Of a stretch of DNA of 64,000 nt, positions 3,191-52,275 are shown in pieces. The notes under the pieces were generated by a model, which saw nothing but the letters and a program-made list of their open reading frames with translations, was not told where the DNA came from and searched no databases. How positions within the stretch are numbered: the first letter of the stretch is position 1; every line of letters begins with the position of its first letter. This stretch comes from Haliotis rufescens. Its lineage: Eukaryota. The position numbers were made by a program, and so were the translations under genes. The stretch covers positions 48,794,001 to 48,858,000 of the forward strand of contig NW_025963779.1 in assembly GCF_023055435.1 (NCBI RefSeq). Direction: 5' to 3'.

Positions 3191-4282
3191 TTACATAATG
3201 TTAGTGTACTGGTTTCCCGAGGGTTGCATGGACTTAGTAGCACTGGGGAGTGACTGATGTACACTAGGGTACAAATAGTCATAGGGATTTCTAGACCTGT
3301 CAAAGCTGGAAGATGAACATTGAGGCATGTAGGTTCCAGCCAGGGACGAGCTTCCCGGGGGAGAGCTGGAGAGAGGGGAGCCGGTCAGGGAGCTGTTCAT
3401 GCTGCTGGCGTTGTAGTAGCCAGTTGTAGGAGAGTAGCCTGTAGGAGATCCCATGGTCCAGATACAGGGGTCAGGCTTGCCTGTTGTGCTGTATGGGTGT
3501 GTCTGGGTTAGTCCCGGGGGTAAGGAGCCGAGACTCAGGGGGTTGAAGCTTGTGTAAGGAGATGGACCTCCATACAACCCCAATAACTGTCCGTAGGGAC
3601 TGGCAGGATGGAATGAAGGATCTTCTCGACGTTGCTTTTGTGCCGACTTGAAACGTTTAGAACGACGGAGGAAACTGCCGTTGCCGAACATGTCCCCACA
3701 AGATGGATGCAGAGCCCACAGGTTACCCTTGCCTGGTTTCCCTGGGGGTCGGGGCACCTTGACGAAACAGTCATTGAGGGAGAGGTTGTGTCTGATGGAG
3801 TTTTGCCATCTCCGTTGGTTGTCTTCGTAGTATGGGAATCTCTTGACGATGTAGTTGTAGATGTCGTTGAGAGTCATCATGCCTGTTGTGGAACTCTCGA
3901 CGGCCATGGTGATGAGAGCCACATAGGAATAGGGAGGCTTCTTGTTGGAAAACTGCCTGCTTTGTTGGGAGAGAGTTGACGTTCCTGGGACAGTGTCTAG
4001 ACTTGGGTCCTCTTCCTCATCGTTTTCGGAGCTCAGTGAGGAAGATGGTGAAGGCAAGGTGTTGTGATCGCCGCCTGGAACTCGATGCTGTTGAAGAGAC
4101 TCCCTCATGTCTCTAGGAGAGAGTTCAGGCCTGACGTCAGCTTCACGTAAAGGTACATATGACTCGACCTGGAACTTGGACGAAGGAGGAAGCTGTGTTG
4201 CATATGGAGGTGTCATCGTCATTGCCATAGCTGGGTCGGCAACGGCATTTCCATACTGAAACGTTGCTGGATTGAACAACAT
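3191..4282 (-). CDS. foxAB: Forkhead-box transcription factor, FoxAB-like, copy 1 (363 aa, intronless)
   Basis: Complete forkhead domain [14 protein letters not shown]...[20 protein letters not shown]...[29 protein letters not shown]. It mixes FoxA-like ([18 protein letters not shown]) and FoxB-like ([11 protein letters not shown]) features; [10 protein letters not shown] fits my recollection of FoxAB. ATG at 4282, TATA-like at 4359-4365, AATAAA at 2967-2972 (minus). The Fox call is certain; the subclass is inferred. Confidence 0.9.
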
Positions 4283-11471: not shown

Positions 11472-12920
11472 TATACTGAACCAAATTAAACACTTCACAA
11501 TCCTAAAATTTTAACAATTTGACCAGTCATGGCCACGTATTGTCTTCAGATAACACCCGTTTTTGTGCAGGTGAATCGATCAAAATCATGTGCACAGCAC
11601 TATAGTGGCAAAAGTGTTTTTTCACGTGCAACTGGTCACGTGGCCATAATACCGCACGTGTTTTCAGCCATACTTGTTAGCAGTCATTAACAAGAAAAGA
11701 AAAACACAAGAAAACAAAAGTCTTTACGGCCATTTGTCATGCCACGCCTTTCAAATGTGCAACGTGAACGTGCCATCGGCATGTTGCAGACGGGAACGTC
11801 CGTAGCTGAAGTCGCAAGGACGATGGGTTGTAGTCGACGGACTGTTTATGATTTACAGACGCCTCTACAGCAAACGGGTACCACCGCTGATCGCCCTCAG
11901 CCAGGTCGACCACGTGTGACATCACATGCAGAGGATCGTCAGATTGTCTTACGTCACCTCCGTAACCGATTCTTGACGGCTACATCAACCAGAAATGAAC
12001 TGTTTAGGGGTAGACTTTGTGCGCAAACTGTTCGAAACCGTCTGAGAACGGCTCACCTTCAAGCACGATGGCCATACTGCGGGCCGATTCTGACTCAATT
12101 ACACAGACGTCAACGTCAATTGTGGGCACAGCGACACTTACGATGAACTCAGAGGAATTGGAATCAAGTCGTCTTCAGTGATGAATCCCGATTTAATCTT
12201 CGATTTGCGGATGGTAGGGCGAGGGTGTGGAGGCGCCGTCATGAACGTTACGCCCAGTGTTGTGTACAGGAAGTTGACAGATTTCGAGGCGGAAGTGTCA
12301 TGGTGTGGGGTGCTTTCTGTGGCAATGCACGTTCCAGGCTTCTTGTCATCCGTGGCAACCTCAACGCTGCTGCTTACCGCGACCAGTTACTGGCACCAAA
12401 ACTTCTGCCTTTTATGGCAGCACATGGACCCGGTTTGATCTTCCAACACGACAATGCCAGACCCCACACAGCAATTTTGACAAGGAATTTCCTTCAGAAT
12501 GAGTCAACGTCATGGACTGGCCGTCAAGGTCTCCCGACCTCAATCCCATCGAACACGTCTGGGATGCCCTTGGCAGAAGTCTGCGCACTCTCCAGAACCA
12601 ACCATTTTGCAGCAACAATGGCGTCGTCTTCCCAATCATGTGTTCACAAGCATCACAAGGTCCATGCGGAGGCGTTGTGTGGCAGTTGTCAACGCACATG
12701 GTGGCCATACATGCTACTGAACTTGTGTGCCATCAGATTCTCGTGTTTGGGACTTATGGTTTAAACTGTTGATGTTATTACCGAATACCGTAGGTGCTTG
12801 GAACAAATTATGGTTACCACCGTTAATTAAAATCCTTCTTTGGACATTAATGATTAAAAATTACCTTCTCTGATACATGTGTCCGTTGTATATAATATAT
12901 GGGATTACTTTTAAAAATGT
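11472..12920 (+). mobile_element. Tc1/mariner DNA transposon with disrupted DDE transposase (11739 to about 12720)
   Basis: MPRLS..RERAIGML, DRPQPGRPRVT, VVFSDESRF, FQHDNARPH, WPSRSPDLNPIEH. Premature TGA at 12144-12146 and a frameshift near 12500. The left end tatactgaac is shared with the 40096 element; no right TIR was found. Confidence 0.9.
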
Positions 12921-14279: not shown

Positions 14280-15386
14280 TCATTTGGACATACCATATGA
14301 ATACATAGGCTGTGAAGCTCCTGTGAATGACTGACACAACTGAGGATAGGAATAATTATATAAATTTTGGATAGCACTCGAGCTCGGTGATGACACTTGT
14401 GGCATATATGTCCCAGCTAGAGGCGAGCTTCCCGACTGGGCAGACAGCATATGTGGCATGTAAGGTCCTGGTGGAGAGCTGGAGAGAGGGGAGCCGGTCA
14501 GAGAGCTGTTGATGCTACTGGCGTTGTAGTAGCCGGCTGTAGGAGAGTAGACGCTAGGAGATCCCAAAGTCCAGGTACTGGGGTCAGACGTGCCTGCTGT
14601 GTTGGGTGTGTGTGTCTGGGTCAGTCTCTGGGGTAAGGGGGTAAGATTCAGGTTGAAACCTTGGTAGGGGGATGGGCCCCCGTAAAGACCAAACTGTCCG
14701 TATGATGTGAACCGTTGAATCAGTGCGTCGTCTTGTCGCTGTTTGTGTCCTGACTTGAAACGTTTAGAACGACGGAGGAAACTGCCGTTACCGAACATGT
14801 CCCCACAAGAAGGATGCAGAGCCCACAGGTTACCCTTGCCTGGTTTCCCCGGGGGTCGGGGCACCTTGACGAAACAGTCATTGAGGGAGAGGTTGTGTCT
14901 GATGGAGTTTTGCCATCTTCGTTGGTTGTCTTGGTAGTAAGGGAATCTCTTGACGATGTAGTTGTAGATGTCGTTGAGAGTCATCATGCCTGTTGTGGAA
15001 CTCTCGACGGCCATGGTGATGAGAGCCACATAGGAATAGGGAGGCTTCTTGTTGGAAAACTGCCTGCTTTGTTTTGAGAGAGTTGATCTTCCTGAGACAG
15101 TGTCAATGAGTAGTTCGTTATTGCTGTCCTTATCTGTACACGGTGACGATGATGGTGAAGGCAGAGGGTCGTTATCGAGCAATTCTGCCTGTTGTCGCTC
15201 TGTTTCTCCGAGGAACATGTCATCTATTCTGTTCGGCGTTCCTGGGGGCGCAGTTGTCTCCCTTGTGAGTGCCACTCTTGTAAATGTTTGAGGCAACATG
15301 TACGACGGCAACACTGGTGTCTCACCCTGCATCACAGCATCCCCAGCCACGTTGCCATACGGAGATACACTAGTATGATTCAACAT
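14280..15386 (-). CDS. foxAB: FoxAB-like copy 2 (368 aa from first ATG)
   Basis: Same forkhead domain. The ORF-track start at 15476 is a TTG upstream of the TATA box. ATG 15386 gives [19 protein letters not shown], homologous to copy 1 [25 protein letters not shown] at 14024-14029 (minus). Confidence 0.9.
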
Positions 15387-21740: not shown

Positions 21741-22868
21741 TCACTGATCATTTGCTAATGCTGTGCTGAGGCTTGGGTAAAGATGTCCTGTGTGCTGTCT
21801 GGGTGCGAAGTGCTGTTGTAGAGCCAGGTAAGTTGTGTGGGTGTGGTCCGACTGGGCACATGGCATCTGTGGTATGTAGACCACTTGGGGTCCTGATGGA
21901 GAGCTGGAGAGAGGGGAGCCGGTCAGAGAGCTGTTGACGCTGCTGGCGTTGTAGTAGCCAGCTGTTGGAGAGTAGACTGTTGGAGATCCCATTGTCCAGA
22001 TACTGGGGTCAGGCCTGTTTGCTGTGCTGTAGGGAAGTGTCTGGGTCAGTCCCTGGGGTAAGGGGCCAAGGTTTAGGGGGTTGAAACCTGGGTAGGGGGG
22101 CGGAACCCCGTAAAGACCAAACTGTCCGTTCGGACTGACCTGATAGAGAGTGGTGTCATCCTGGCGTTGTTTTTTAGCAGACTTGAAACGGTTAGAACGA
22201 CGGAGGAAACTGCCGTTACCGAACATGTCCCCACAAGATGGATGCAGAGCCCACAGGTTACCCTTGCCTGGTGTCCCCGGGGGTCGGGGCACCTTGACGA
22301 AACAGTCATTGAGGGAGAGGTTGTGTCTGATGGAGTTTTGCCATCTCCGTTGGTTGTCTTGGTAGTAAGGAAATCTCTTGACGATGTAGTTGTAGATGTC
22401 GTTGAGAGTCATCATGCCTGTTGTGGAACTCTCGACGGCCATGGTGATGAGGGCCACATAGGAATAGGGAGGCTTCTTGTTGGAAAACTGCCTGTTTTGT
22501 TGTGAGAGGGTCGACGTTCCTGACACACTGTCAAAGCTGAGATTGATATCATCGTCGTTGTCGGAGGATACTGAAGATGATGGTGATGGCAGGATGCTGT
22601 TGTCCTCGTGTACTGACAGGTTATATTGGTCACTGGGCAAAGTCTCCGTGTGTGTAGTATTCCATCCACTTTCTGTCACAGACGTATGCTGAGGCCTGTG
22701 TTTAACGTCCACGTCCCTTTGTACAGGTAGAGAATGTAAGGACGGGTGAGATACCGGCGTGAAGAGGGATGTCGAAGACGGCCACTGCTGCGTCAGACAG
22801 CGGGTGCTCTCGTCTCCATCACGGCACACCTGGAAGGGGTTTACACAAGGCATAACTGAACTCGTCAT
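21741..22868 (-). CDS. foxAB: FoxAB-like copy 3 (375 aa)
   Basis: Same forkhead domain with two private substitutions ([15 protein letters not shown]). ATG 22868, TATAAA at 22933-22938, AATAAA at 21595-21600 (minus). Confidence 0.9.
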
Positions 22869-25877: not shown

Positions 25878-26993
25878 TCAGCCACTTTCCGCTTTGGTTA
25901 CTGAATCGCTGATAACATCTGAACTGCTCTTCGAAAATGTCAAGGCTTGGTAAAGAGCTGGGTAACATGAATGTGAGAAGTCTGTGAGAGAACTAGGATA
26001 TGGCATCTGTGGCATGTAGGTCCCACCCAGGGACGAGCATCCCGGAGGAGAGCTGGAGAGAGGGGAGCCGGTCAGAGAGTTGTTGATGCTGCTGGCGTTG
26101 TAGTAGCCAGCTGTAGGAGGAGAGTAGCCTGTAGGAGATGTCATAGTCCAGGGACTGGGGTCAGGCCTATTTGCTGTGGTGTAAGGATAAGTCTGGGTCA
26201 GTCCTTGGGGTAAGGGACCGAGACTTAGGGGGTTGAAACCTGGGTAGGGGGGCGGAACCCCGTAAAGACCAAACTGTCCGTTCGGACTGACCTGATGAAG
26301 AGTGGTGTCATCCTGGCGTTGTTTTTGAGCAGACTTGAAACGTTTGGAACGACGAAGGAAACTGCCGTTACCGAACATGTCCCCACAAGAAGGATGCAGA
26401 GCCCACAGGTTACCCTTGCCTGGTTTCCCTGGGGGTCGGGGCACCTTGACGAAACAGTCATTGAGGGAGAGGTTGTGTCTGATGGAGTTTTGCCATCTCC
26501 GTTGGTTGTCTTGGTAGTAGGGAAATCTCTTGACGATGTAGTTGTAGATGTCGTTGAGAGTCATCATGCCTGTTGTGGAACTCTCGACGGCCATGGTGAT
26601 GAGAGCAACGTAGGAATAGGGAGGCTTCTTGTTGGAAAACTGCCTGCTTTGTTGTGAGAGGGTCGACGGTATGGAAACGTCAATGCCGACGCCGTCATTA
26701 TCTGAACATGACGATGGCGATGATATGTTGCTGATGTCGTTTTCTGATGGGATAGCCAGGGGCTCTACTCCCGGGGAGACCTCCAGGGCGTTTTGTACCA
26801 TATCAAGAGGTACAGTTGTTTCCCCGGGATTTGTAAACACTATGTGCGACTCGGGACTTGAGTTTGGAGACACCAATGACAACATCTGCTGCATCGAAGA
26901 AAACGACGACATCATGTTGGATAATTTGTCAGTTTCTTCCGTGCTATAGTTAAACATATCTATACCAGGAACACTCGTGTTGGTGGCCGACAT
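25878..26993 (-). CDS. foxAB: FoxAB-like copy 4 (371 aa from first ATG)
   Basis: Same forkhead domain. The ORF-track start at 27023 is GTG; the first in-frame ATG is 26993. TATATAA at 27071-27077, AATAAA at 25699-25704 (minus). Confidence 0.9.
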
Positions 26994-48032: not shown

Positions 48033-49569
48033 AGAATTCTACATAGGTACATTGTCGTCAAACTGACAATAGGGCATACACAAGTGTGTACAAAAGCGTG
48101 GACGGTGTATATTTGTTAGAAGGGTGTAATCGATGTACCGTGTCTATCAACCCCTTAAACACATCCGGCAAAGTGGGTATACGTATTACGTATGCTTGAT
48201 TGCACATTAGCATTATACAAATATTATACTCTGAATGACAAGAATGATGGATAGCAAACCCTAATCGGCGAGATGAATAAGATTCTCTCAACGCCATAGA
48301 AAGCTAAATTAGCTTTAGTAGCAAGAAAGAAAAACGCTCTCATTTATCAATCCTTTTTTAACGTTGTGATTAGTTAAACACAATATTGTAAATCAAACAA
48401 AGAAAGAATACACATTCTGGTTGATTCTTTGGTTGAAATGAGTGCACTCTTCGCAGTGCTTTAGAGAAGAAATAGCATAGTTACCTCCCTGTCCATGTCA
48501 TGCAACTGTCTACATGAAATAAACCATTGCACAAAGCATCGATCATCATCTATGACAGCTTGTCAAGGAAGTGAAAACAGGGAACGTTCTTTGTGTCGGG
48601 CTCGTGATGATGTCTCAGGTATGGATAATTATTCATGGACATGCAAGTTTGTCTTAATTGGGAACAAGAGGAACACTGTCCTTTCTGTAGTGTCCGTTCA
48701 TAACTTAACGGGCTGTTCTGTTTCGTTAACACTCGGTTCGTAAATGTACCGTCACAATGATCACAAGACAAACATAACACGTTCGGTTATTGCTTTGTGA
48801 TAATTATGGTAAGTGTAATCTCATTACGATATAGCTAAAACTAAACAGTTGTACATGTTAAAAAATACCAAACCGTGACATAAAAACACAAATGTAGGAT
48901 GTTATATTTTATTTCAGCGACTATATAATTAAAGCAACATAAATATAATCATGGATGTATTAGTGCACAAAAATAGTTTATATCAAACCGGCAAGTCAAT
49001 TTACTGTACATAAATAATGATAGACAAGACATATTAGATTTAAATAATATAGCTATAAATACTTATTCAACAATTACAATGTGTCAAGTCTTTATCGCTT
49101 TAGCATTCGTACAACAAATTCGGTATACAATCACAGATTCACACGGGACCTTTCCAATTACGAGCTCACAAAAACATTGATAATCGAATATGAATAAAGA
49201 CATATGATAAAAATACGCCGTTAGGGGAAACCATGACAAATGCATGGTGTTTCAAACATAAATGATAAATATCAAAAGTAATTCATTTTGTAATGGAATG
49301 CTTGGTTACTCTTTAGTGTATCAATGACAGTTAAAATATCATAGAAATAACATGTGACTCCCGTGACTTAATTCAAATGAAAACAATAGGTTTTCAAATA
49401 AGTTCCCTGCGATGGATGCGTCTGTTTGTTTTTAATTACAACAACACTTTCAAATGACACAGTGCACATTTCTATCACAATATGCTTGTCAGTTATCTGG
49501 AACCCTCCAAAAAACTATATACATGATGTTTTTACCACAGGGATGTACATAGATTTGAAGTCCAATGTA

Positions 49570-50833
49570 CTAGCACTGCCATGGTAGGAAGGTGCCAAGT
49601 TCCCCCAGCGGAGTTGGGTTCTTCATCCAGTCCAGAACCTGTTCAATGGATACAACATAGACATCTTGCATGGACACTAAAGTCATTATGAATCTGTCGA
49701 GTCCTGCCAAGTTGGGTTTATAGATGAAGTGGGAGAACCACTGTTGTCTCAGTGTTACACCGAAAGGGGCTCGGTTGCCATCGTAATGCTCCTTGAAGTT
49801 CCGCCACAAGAAGTTGAAGGTATCGTCTGCTGTTGGTGGGTTGAACATGCAGCCGTCAGCGTACGTGCAGGGATAGCGTTGTGTGTAGTCCAGAAGAGGT
49901 ACAATGGGGACCTCCCATAATCCAGGATACGCCTCAGTGGGACAGCCACTAATATCACATGTATCCCTCCAGCGAAAGTCGAGCGTGTAAGGCCAAGCGA
50001 AGTCCCCTTTGGTCTGAGGGTTTGGTAGAGACAGAGTGCTATCATACAGGAGGTTTTGAGACTTGAGGATCTTGAACTGGGCGTCTCCAAGAGGTTTCAA
50101 AGCGGGGCTTCTCCACCCTTTGAGGTTTCTGACGGGAAGCTTGGCTTGGAGATAGTTGATCTCGTTGTTCAGGTCTGTCTCTAACGAGTTGGATCGTCGA
50201 TATGCGTCCATGTCGTCCCCTCTTAGCCCAACTTCCATTCCCATGCCTGCCAGACGTTTGAGGTAAGTCATGTAGTTACCACTCTTAGACACGAACATTG
50301 TCGCTGAGATGGAACAGTTATTGGGATTCGTTCTGTCAGAATCAAAGAGATGCACGAGGTTCATGTACGAGTTCACGTTGACTGGGCCATCGAAAGTGAA
50401 ATACACCATCTGAGGGGTTTCTGTCTCCGCTAAACCCCCTGGCGGGTGGGTTGTTCTGCACATACAGCCAGGTAGCCTACAGTTCCAGCCTTGAATACAC
50501 GGCAATGATGACGAAGAGCGCGAGTGAGATGGGAGTCCAGATGATGCAGTTGACTGCAGGAACTGCATTTGTGCTGAGCTCAGTACTCGTGTCGCTCCCC
50601 CGTTTTTTGCTGCTGTTGTCAATAGTTTGCTGACAGCTGTCGGGAAGGAAAGCTTGGGCGTTGATGACTTATGTTTGTGAGACACTTGAGGAGACGATTG
50701 TGCAAGTTCTGTCGGACGAGTGCCTGACACAAATGTCTGCGACGGATGCACCTTTGTAATAAACTTAGTGCTTTTGGTGTCTTTAGGAGTTGTCGTCGAA
50801 GGAAATCGAATATTTGTAGTGGGCTTCATCGTA

Positions 50834-50870
<37 letters not shown>

Positions 50871-51990
50871 GTGTTGTGGTTGTAGTTGTCGTCGTAGTGG
50901 ATGTTGTTGGCGGTGTAGTCGTGGTTGTTGAAGGCGTAGTTGGTGTTGAAACTGACGTAGTTGGTACTGTGGCATTGCTTGACACATGCACTGCGGCACA
51001 TCTCCATGAAGGTAAAGTCTGTAGTTGAGAAATGGGAGTAGGTTCCTTCATCCAGTCCAGCATCTGCTTCACACTAACAATATAAACATTTTTCAGCTCT
51101 CGCACCTGCTCAATAAACCTGTTCATAGCATTTAGATTATGCTCGGACCAGAACCAAGCGGCATGCATATTAAAACCGAACGGTGTCCGTGAACTATTAT
51201 AATAATCTAAAAAGTTTTGCCATAAATATTTAAAAGCATCTTCCTCTGTATCTGGCCGGTTGAAGCAGCCATCAACATACGCGCAAGCGTAGGCGTTCTT
51301 GTAGTCCACTAAAGAATTGACGGGTACTTCCCAGAATCCAGGGTGGCGAGATTCAGGTTTGGGACACGGGCGTACCATGCAGCTAAACGGATACCCATAG
51401 TCCAGGGTGTAGGGCCATGGGCGTGCCATCCCTAACTTGCTTCGAGTGTAAGTCAAAGATATGTCATAAGTGTAGCCCAAAGACTTAAGAATATCTGGTT
51501 GTACATCCCCAGCTGTCTTCAGATTGGGGCTACGCCATCCGACGATGTCTTCAATTGGAATTCGTCCTAGGGTGGCCAGGTTCTTTCTCTGCTGACCCGC
51601 CTCGTACCTGAGTTTGTCCCCAGTGCTGATTGAGGTGTGTGTGACACTGTGGACTCCGATCTCCATCCCCTTGTTGTAAAACTCATGCACCAATCGGTAG
51701 TCCGTGTATTGATCTTGGACGTACAGACTCATAGTTATTGGACATCCGTTGGGGTTCTTTCTGTCGGGTGAAAACAGGCGTCGGTAGTGACTGGCCATTT
51801 CCACATTCAAAGCGTCATCAAACCCAAAGTACACAATTTGAGGAATCTCCTCCAAGTCCATATTTAGTCGCGACGTACTGCAGAAGCAGTTTGGTAGTTG
51901 ACAGTTTATACCCTGAATACACTGGGACTGAAGACTCCCCCTGACAATAGTCAGCACACTCAACACGACTAACAGCATCGACTGCCTCAT
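49570..51990 (-). CDS. Secreted tandem double-domain chitin/polysaccharide deacetylase-like protein (CE4), 806 aa, intronless
   Basis: Signal peptide MRQSMLLVVLSVLTIVRG from ATG 51990 (ORF-track start 52005 is TTG). Two homologous animal-CDA domains (CxLPxCxC, PQxVYFxFD, NPNxC, GWRSP, WPYTLD, WEVP, CxYxDGC, PFG) are separated by a Thr/Ser/Pro-rich linker. TATAAAA at 52154-52160, AATAAA at 48908-48913. Confidence 0.92.
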
Positions 51991-52153
51991 GTTCGCTCGC
52001 GACAAGTGAACGTGAAATGTCGGTACTGTCTTGATAAAGCTGTAAATTCAGATAAATCAGAAATATGTCGTCTGCTTGGCTTATTTCTGGTCGTCTGCTT
52101 CAAAGGTGCGCGCTGTGTTTGCCCATACACTGTCACCCAGTGATTACCGTTCC

Positions 52154-52275
52154 TTTTATAGCCGAGGGGCGTTTGTAGTCTCTTGGTGACGTCACGGCGG
52201 TGTATGAGTGACAAGGGTGCACGCGCCAATAGATGTAGATAAATATATTACTATATCGTAGGTGGGTGGGATTGG
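52154..52275 (-). promoter_or_regulatory. Probable core promoter of the deacetylase gene (TATA, CRE, CCAAT)
   Basis: TATAAAA (minus) 52154-52160, perfect TGACGTCA 52187-52194, and CCAAT motifs at about 52226 and 52271, in typical order upstream of the ATG. Confidence 0.6.

What the first reader, a model, noticed from the sequence alone, without database searches (positions are those of the whole stretch)
49570..51990. Tandem chitin deacetylase with one active and one catalytically dead domain
Seen: domain 1 keeps the CE4 motifs GFDDA, HSVTH, RSP and NMH. Domain 2 has TFDGP (metal-binding Asp lost), GLRGDDM in place of HxxxH (both Zn-binding His lost) and TLR in place of the catalytic His, yet retains the cysteines, RSP, WPYTLD and WEVP. 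There is no CBM14 or LDLa domain of the kind seen in many insect CDAs. Inference: the dead domain serves as a chitin/chitosan-binding module tethered by a mucin-like linker, analogous to enzyme-linker-CBM designs and relevant to shell, radula or gut matrix. The gene is intronless.
Basis: partly seen in the sequence, partly recalled or inferred. Interest (0 to 1): 0.7.

Follow-up and report, generated by a model that had tools for sequence, protein, structure and literature searches.

The report
Shell chitin deacetylase with dead twin
This abalone gene encodes a shell-matrix protein with one intact chitin-deacetylase domain and a second copy that has lost its catalytic residues in snails, clams and octopus alike, and the dead copy likely anchors the enzyme to chitin.

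Summary
Confirmed. The 806-aa ORF (49570-51990, minus; Haliotis) has a signal peptide, an insect-type CE4 domain with every catalytic residue (D1), a disordered Thr/Ser linker and a second CE4 domain (D2). D2 lacks the metal Asp, both metal His and the catalytic His, yet is predicted to keep the whole fold (Z 39.7 to BmCDA8).

The pattern is ancient. In 37 selected tandems D1 keeps all seven catalytic residues (37 of 37) and D2 never keeps the metal triad (0 of 37). All sampled C-terminal D2 form one clade, sister to D1, covering gastropods, bivalves and Octopus. Peptides of both domains of the H. laevigata ortholog are in the acid-insoluble prismatic shell matrix. The published entry lists two NodB domains and does not note the dead one.

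Chitin binding by D2 is inferred, not shown. D2's pocket positions vary widely, it evolves faster than D1 among close abalones (14N/7S against 5N/11S), and some bivalve paralogs lack it. Dead CE4 domains are known, so this is a new variant of a known kind. The Thr-rich linker composition is not conserved, and single-exon coding is shared with the other CDA domains of this genome.

The parts
49570..51990 (-). Single-exon ORF, 806 aa, tandem CE4 chitin deacetylase (P0001)
   Evidence: 95% identical to H. cracherodii P0002 and 88% to H. rubra P0003; no joints in laid contigs
51931..51990 (-). Predicted signal peptide, about aa 1-20
   Evidence: hydrophobic N-terminus in the sequence; the H. laevigata ortholog is annotated SSP aa 1-21; no predictor was run here
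50992..51924 (-). D1, insect-type CE4 domain with all catalytic residues (aa 23-333)
   Evidence: phmmer E 7.3e-51 to BmCDA8 5z34; seven catalytic positions invariant in 37 of 37 tandems
51814..51819 (-). D1 motif 1, D58 (base) and D59 (metal)
   Evidence: roles from PMC6463723
51637..51651 (-). D1 motif 2, HSVTH (H114, H118)
51163..51165 (-). D1 motif 5 catalytic His276
50503..50991 (-). Disordered Thr/Ser-rich basic linker (aa 334-496)
   Evidence: pLDDT under 50 for aa 333-493; 49% S+T, no Cys, pI 11.6
49573..50502 (-). D2, CE4 fold without catalytic residues (aa 497-806)
   Evidence: AlphaFold2 pLDDT 93.9, pTM 0.93; Z 39.7, rmsd 1.9, 303 aligned to 5z34_A; 38% identical to D1
50386..50391 (-). 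D2 motif 1, D534-G535 (metal Asp replaced by Gly)
   Evidence: Gly in 32 of 37, Asp in 0 of 37
50209..50223 (-). D2 motif 2 remnant RGDDM (aa 590-594), both His lost, G591 invariant
   Evidence: His in 0 of 37 and 1 of 37; G591 in 37 of 37
49855..49857 (-). D2 motif 4 Asp712, invariant
   Evidence: 37 of 37
49747..49749 (-). D2 Arg748 in place of the catalytic His
   Evidence: R 20, S 6, H 4, K 3, Q 2, T 2 of 37
52155..52160 (-). TATA-like box; candidate start near 52122
   Evidence: motif scan; contigs of X1 and X14 stop at 52122 while X17 runs on; a weak hint only
48908..48913 (-). AATAAA, candidate poly(A) signal
   Evidence: by arithmetic on record lengths, contigs of X6 and X8 would end near 48915 and 48907, outside the laid stretch

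Best explanation
A secreted matrix protein in which an intact CE4 domain (D1) likely deacetylates chitin, while a catalytically stripped duplicate (D2), held on a disordered linker, likely serves as a non-catalytic chitin/chitosan anchor that keeps the enzyme on the insoluble scaffold. Shown: D1 has every catalytic residue; D2 lacks the metal triad and the catalytic His; the arrangement is conserved in gastropods, bivalves and Octopus; peptides of both domains occur in the acid-insoluble prismatic shell matrix of H. laevigata. Predicted: D2 keeps the full insect-type fold. Inferred from the tree: one internal duplication, one loss of catalysis before those three classes split, then duplication of the whole gene into two paralogs. 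Inferred by analogy only: D2 takes the place of the CBM14 domain or accessory chitin-binding protein that insect CDAs use.
For: Motif census in 37 tandems: D1 37 of 37 at all seven positions; D2 metal Asp 0 of 37, first His 0 of 37, second His 1 of 37, catalytic His 4 of 37. IQ-TREE on 51 domains: D2 clade 100, D1 clade 97, D1+D2 98; FastTree D2 clade 1.0 and 0.999. Octopus sinensis P0339 has the same layout. D2 fold. D2 is constrained: 26 of 310 residues differ from H. rubra, against 23 of 311 in D1 and 39 of 163 in the linker; 52 columns are at least 80% conserved in both domains. Some aromatics near the cleft persist: Y710 Y/F in 32 of 37, W751 in 37 of 37, Y706 (BmCDA8 F238 by the alignment) Y/F in 20 of 37, and H/W at 754 in 31 of 37 where D1 varies. 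H. laevigata Tri_107502: 22 and 23 peptides, 230 and 231 spectra in prism acid-insoluble samples, none in soluble; 3 peptides in two of three nacre insoluble samples. In sample prism A my tally is 9 D1, 1 linker and 12 D2 peptides. Precedents: BmCDA6 is inactive yet binds chitin like active BmCDA7 and 8 (PMC7953033); BmCDA1 needs the chitin-binding protein CPAP3-A1 (PMC6463723).
Against: No binding or activity data exist here for either domain; intact motifs do not ensure activity (BmCDA1 alone was inactive). D2's former pocket is highly variable (590, 592-596, 709, 715-717), unlike a tightly conserved ligand site. Among close abalones D2 shows 14 nonsynonymous and 7 synonymous differences (pN/pS 0.59, not distinguishable from 1, p 0.18) against 5 and 11 in D1 (0.13; Fisher p 0.049), although the D2 changes fall on variable columns (mean conservation 0.27 against 0.51). 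Bivalve paralogs such as P0050 and P0053 have D1 and a long tail but no D2. Both domains stop short of the insect C-terminal loops that give BmCDA8 two cleft aromatics (D2 aligns to chain residues 26-338 of 23-381). In the widest FastTree the sister relation of D1 and D2 was unresolved. Linkers of many orthologs hold basic pairs that could be cut, so the tether may not last.
Confidence: 0.55

Rival explanations
1. D2 is a built-in protein partner: it docks on D1 and activates or regulates it, or links the enzyme to other matrix proteins, and does not bind chitin itself.
For: BmCDA1 needs an accessory protein. D2 has its own conserved positions away from the lost ligands (T564, F566, G591, G763 in 37 of 37). 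Intact-plus-degenerate tandems arose separately elsewhere (Gordionus P0230, unnamed P0220). This genome also has one intact and one degenerate single-domain CDA, each with a hydrophobic C-terminal tail (L011, L012).
Against: Linker length ranges from 48 to 1041 aa, and D1-only paralogs persist in bivalves.
Confidence: 0.22
2. D2 is a stable disulfide-rich structural filler of the organic matrix; the fold is selected but no specific ligand is.
For: Conserved columns include 9 Cys and many Pro, Gly and hydrophobic residues; pocket positions vary; pN/pS is high among close abalones; D2 peptides are plentiful in the insoluble matrix.
Against: It does not explain why the domain stays fused to an intact enzyme in three classes, or why D712, R627 and W751 near the old active site are kept. 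The protein is minor (iBAQ under 0.1%).
Confidence: 0.13
3. D2 is a metal-independent enzyme with another substrate, as PuuE allantoinase is on the NodB fold.
For: D534 (30 of 37), R627 (34 of 37) and D712 (37 of 37) are kept; a non-metal NodB enzyme exists (PMC10967932; 3cl6 at Z 21.0, rmsd 3.3, 240 aligned).
Against: No replacement catalytic set is conserved: position 590 is R/K/N/Y/Q/M/A, 594 takes 13 residue types, and D534 is lost in 7 of 37.
Confidence: 0.05
4. D2 is a functionless remnant that is decaying.
For: pN/pS among close abalones is not distinguishable from 1; some paralogs lack it.
Against: An open, complete domain with 39% mean pairwise identity across 37 tandems, far better kept than the linker against H. 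rubra, and translated.
Confidence: 0.03

Closest known systems
Insect CE4 chitin deacetylases BmCDA8 (5Z34) and BmCDA1 (5ZNS/5ZNT)
   Same: Same fold and insect-type motifs; D1 E 7.3e-51; D2 Z 39.7 and 38.7, rmsd 1.9 and 1.6
   Different: Single catalytic domain; BmCDA1 has CBM14 and LDLa. They carry C-terminal loops that D2 lacks (chain ranges 26-338 and 167-487). Neither carries a dead second copy.
Haliotis laevigata Tri_107502 and idb_6290; Lottia gigantea Lotgi1|181237 (shell proteomes PMC6003135, PMC3374290)
   Same: Tri_107502 is the ortholog and idb_6290 matches paralog L010 by peptide sequences. Both are listed with two NodB-type domains and found in shell. The Lottia protein is Tri_107502's best match and is listed as a minor secreted chitin deacetylase.
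   Different: The passages and table rows read list the domains only; they do not note that the second lacks catalytic residues. The Lottia sequence was not examined here.
Inactive CE4 proteins: BmCDA6, EcCDA (2VYO), Ba0150 (4M1B), BA3943 (7BKF)
   Same: NodB-fold proteins reported as inactive; BmCDA6 binds chitin (BA3943 from entry titles)
   Different: Not reported, in what was read, as a dead copy fused to an active twin. The basis of BmCDA6's inactivity was not checked.
Enzyme-linker-CBM carbohydrate enzymes, and multi-domain insect GH18 chitinases with inactive catalytic copies (recalled, no call)
   Same: Catalytic domain, low-complexity linker and non-catalytic module
   Different: Here the module is a whole 310-aa CE4 domain, and binding is untested.

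Membership tests
CE4 chitin deacetylase, insect type (D1) | NodB barrel with insect-type loop insertion | tested here: met
   Pfam PF01522 above cut-off; phmmer and Foldseek best hits 5z34 and 5zns
CE4 chitin deacetylase, insect type (D1) | Asp-His-His metal triad, base Asp, motif 3 Arg, motif 4 Asp, motif 5 His | tested here: met
   D59, H114, H118, D58, R153, D240, H276; 37 of 37
CE4 chitin deacetylase, insect type (D1) | Deacetylates chitin | not testable with these tools
   needs an assay; BmCDA1 with intact motifs was inactive alone
Active CE4 deacetylase (D2) | NodB fold | tested here: met
   predicted model, Z 39.7, rmsd 1.9, 303 aligned to 5z34_A
Active CE4 deacetylase (D2) | Asp-His-His metal triad | tested here: not met
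   G535, R590, M594; triad in 0 of 37
Active CE4 deacetylase (D2) | Motif 5 catalytic His | tested here: not met
   R748; His in 4 of 37
Insect CDA groups I-IV | CBM14 (and LDLa in groups I-II) | tested here: not met
   no such Pfam match at E up to 0.1; group definitions from PMC7953033
Insect CDA group V | Single CDA domain without CBM | tested here: not met
   two domains
Carbohydrate-binding module (function of D2) | Binds chitin or chitosan without catalysis | not testable with these tools
   analogy to BmCDA6 only
Carbohydrate-binding module (function of D2) | Conserved aromatic binding surface | tested here: inconclusive
   Y710, W751, H/W754 conserved; Y706 partly; 715-716 and 590-596 variable; surface exposure not computed, as model coordinates were not in the script box
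Mollusc shell-matrix protein | Peptides in shell extract | tested here: met
   met for the H. laevigata ortholog in published tables; not tested for this species

The most novel reading that the evidence does not exclude
Since before gastropods, bivalves and cephalopods split, molluscs have used a writer-reader module on chitin. D1 deacetylates, and the dead twin D2 has a rebuilt cleft (Arg748, Asp712, Trp751, His/Trp754) that reads partly deacetylated chitin. D2 would thereby steer where chitosan patches form in shell prisms and in other chitinous parts.
Probability: 0.18. Interest if true: 0.75.

Novelty: new variant of a known kind. Interest (0 to 1): 0.5.

Why it matters
Chitin is the scaffold of mollusc shells, but how molluscs modify it is little tested. 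This shows that the shell-associated deacetylase of abalone belongs to an old, duplicated family of enzyme-plus-pseudoenzyme proteins present in three classes. Annotations that count two NodB domains overstate its catalytic content. The family gives a clean two-domain construct for testing whether a dead CE4 domain acts as a chitin anchor or activator, which also bears on why some insect CDAs are inactive alone.

Tried and rejected
The full-length AlphaFold2 model has pTM 0.47 and no inter-domain error map was given; it is no evidence on binding either way.
2. Sequencing runs: no RNA holder is listed on record. The 14 holder runs marked 'RNA?' are guesses and carry no tissue labels, so radula and gut expression was not testable.
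3. My first choice for motif 4 (YDISL/YDSTL) was replaced by AYVDG/TYADG after reading the structure paper.
4. The idea that D2 arose by fusion with the stand-alone degenerate CDA (L012) was rejected: L012 falls in another clade with Patella, Lymnaea and Gigantopelta singles.
5. A lineage-specific decay in abalone was rejected.
6. Rows left out of the 37-tandem count: 12 of the 48 multi-domain proteins P0001-P0048 (P0004 and P0005 four-domain; P0021, P0040, P0045 other arrangements; P0022, P0047, P0048 cut D1; P0030, P0043, P0044, P0046 partial D2); own paralog P0130 was added. The 37 include close relatives and are not independent. Exceptions to the pattern in the wider set: P0218, P0223, P0244 and P0209 have both domains degenerate; P0197 and P0215 have only intact copies.
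7. Earlier scan notes: nothing by sequence or by words.
8. Literature: eight searches listed no paper on a dead second domain in mollusc CDAs. Only listings and the passages named were seen, subscription papers are mostly absent, 3 of 27 supplements of PMC6003135 were not searched, and bioRxiv supplements are closed.
9. A proper dN/dS on distant orthologs could not be run: no ortholog DNA beyond near-identical abalone contigs was available.

Full report
Observation. The ORF at 49570-51990 (minus) gives 806 aa and is 95% identical to a Haliotis cracherodii protein, so the window is from an abalone. Pfam finds only Polysacc_deac_1; the only PDB sequence hits are the silkworm deacetylases BmCDA8 and BmCDA1. 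With residue roles from the BmCDA1 paper (PMC6463723; abstract, introduction and results read), D1 has D58, D59, H114, H118, R153, D240 and H276. D2 has D534, G535, R590, M594, R627, D712 and R748 at the same places: the metal triad and the catalytic His are gone. AlphaFold2 gives two confident domains and a disordered linker, aa 333-493. D2 folded alone has pLDDT 93.9 and matches 5z34_A at Z 39.7, rmsd 1.9, 303 residues, far above the next family at Z 22.3. D2 ends where the insect chains go on into C-terminal loops (chain ranges 26-338 and 167-487).

Gene structure. Contigs of four runs guessed to be RNA cover the ORF without a joint, apart from a skipped 87-base repeat. Two stop at 52122, 33 bases from a TATA-like box, while a much larger run goes on; this is a weak hint of a one-exon transcript. 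The other full-length CDA domains of this genome also lie in single open frames.

Conservation. The first homolog search scored 7968 candidates and listed 120 of 164 hits. Of P0001-P0048, all with two or more domain hits, 36 have two complete domains in this arrangement; with the genome's second tandem (P0130, L010, 1683 aa) that makes 37. The 12 left out are named under Tried and rejected. D1 keeps all seven positions in 37 of 37. D2 has the metal Asp in 0, the first His in 0, the second His in 1 and the catalytic His in 4 of 37; it keeps D712 in 37, R627 in 34 and D534 in 30. Named carriers include Haliotis, Gigantopelta, Patella, Littorina, Babylonia, Nucella, Aplysia, Elysia, Plakobranchus, Mytilus, Mizuhopecten, Pecten, Saccostrea, Mercenaria, Potamilus and Sinanodonta, and Octopus sinensis. 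No chiton or non-mollusc was named in this clade, but many members are unnamed.

History. In IQ-TREE (51 domains chosen by me from 282, LG+G4) the C-terminal dead domains form one clade (100), the D1 domains another (97), and the two are sisters (98). FastTree agrees on the D2 clade but left the sister relation unresolved in the widest set, of which I saw a cut output. The simplest reading is an internal duplication, one loss of catalysis before the three classes split, and then a gene duplication that gave abalone two tandems. Degenerate CDA domains also arose elsewhere: the stand-alone L012 lineage, many singles in the representative search, a separate tandem in the horsehair worm Gordionus and four-domain Mytilus proteins. 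Some bivalve paralogs have no D2.

Selection. Mean pairwise identity is 53% in D1 and 39% in D2. Against H. rubra, 23 of 311 D1 residues, 26 of 310 D2 residues and 39 of 163 linker residues differ, so D2 is constrained. Against this, pooled differences in contigs of runs X1, X6, X8, X14 and X17 give D2 14 nonsynonymous and 7 synonymous changes (pN/pS 0.59; p 0.18 against neutrality) and D1 5 and 11 (0.13; p 9e-5), Fisher p 0.049. The counts are small, mix polymorphism with divergence and treat each position alone. The D2 changes fall on variable columns. The fold is kept and the surface is freer.

Where it acts. In the H. laevigata shell proteome (PMC6003135; passages and supplement rows read), Tri_107502 shares peptides with both domains. 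Its peptides and their flanking windows include the degenerate stretches. It has 22 and 23 peptides and iBAQ 0.057 and 0.082% in prism acid-insoluble samples, none in soluble ones, and 0.001% in two of three nacre insoluble samples. The entry lists two NodB domains as uncharacterized. The paralog idb_6290 is in both layers. Lottia 181237, its best match, is a minor secreted shell protein (PMC3374290, one passage). Polysaccharide-deacetylase proteins are also reported from snail and unionid shells (passages of PMC6368272, PMC6542584, PMC3544910 and bioRxiv 2022.09.07.507049); I did not check whether those are orthologs. Octopus lacks a mineral shell (recalled), so other chitinous parts are likely targets there.

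Mechanism. I commit to enzyme plus anchor at 0.55. Insect CDA domains bind chitin whether or not they are active (review PMC7953033, passages), BmCDA1 needs a chitin-binding helper, this protein has no CBM14, and it partitions to the insoluble fraction. Some aromatics near the cleft persist (Y710, W751, H/W754; Y706 in part), but the old pocket is highly variable and exposure was not computed. Rivals are a protein partner or activator (0.22), a structural filler (0.13), a metal-free enzyme (0.05; PuuE precedent in passages of PMC10967932) and decay (0.03). The linker is disordered, but its Thr content and length are not conserved.

Novelty. The protein is catalogued in shell proteomes and inactive CE4 proteins are known. 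Eight searches listed nothing on a conserved dead second domain in mollusc CDAs; the library lacks most subscription journals. Verdict: a real, ancient enzyme-plus-pseudoenzyme design, a new variant of a known kind, interest 0.5.

Noticed in passing
window 3191-4282, 14280-15386, 21741-22868, 25878-26993 (all -); L018 6433-7347 (-): A tandem array of at least five forkhead genes in single open frames, with near-identical forkhead domains and divergent N-termini. The class label FoxAB is recalled from motifs and was not tested. Passages of bioRxiv 2022.03.02.482670 report one or two foxAB genes in two annelids, so an array of five could be an unreported expansion.
   Followed up: partly
L010 2970-8021 (G000:C1 about 80.32 Mb): Second intact-plus-dead tandem, 1683 aa, with a 1041-aa Pro-rich linker holding repeats; matches shell protein idb_6290 by peptides.
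   Followed up: yes
L012 3827-4960 and L011 4143-5498: A stand-alone degenerate CDA (FDGS, NSLTG, NMK) and an intact one, each with a hydrophobic C-terminal tail; the Patella and Lottia relatives of L012 keep both metal His and motif 5 His but have Asn at the base Asp.
   Followed up: partly
P0004 cluster (Mytilus), P0021, P0040 (Pinctada), P0209: Bivalve proteins with two to four CDA domains in which D1-type copies have degenerated again independently.
   Followed up: partly
P0230 (Gordionus), P0220, P0197, P0215 (Strigamia): Independent CDA tandems outside this clade: intact-plus-degenerate in P0230 and P0220, all intact in P0197 and P0215.
   Followed up: partly
window 11739-12764 (+): Tc1/mariner-like transposase remnant in two ORFs; the first matches HTH_Tnp_Tc3_2.
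   Followed up: no
L018 831-1736 (-): A 301-aa open frame with several hydrophobic stretches, not identified.
   Followed up: no
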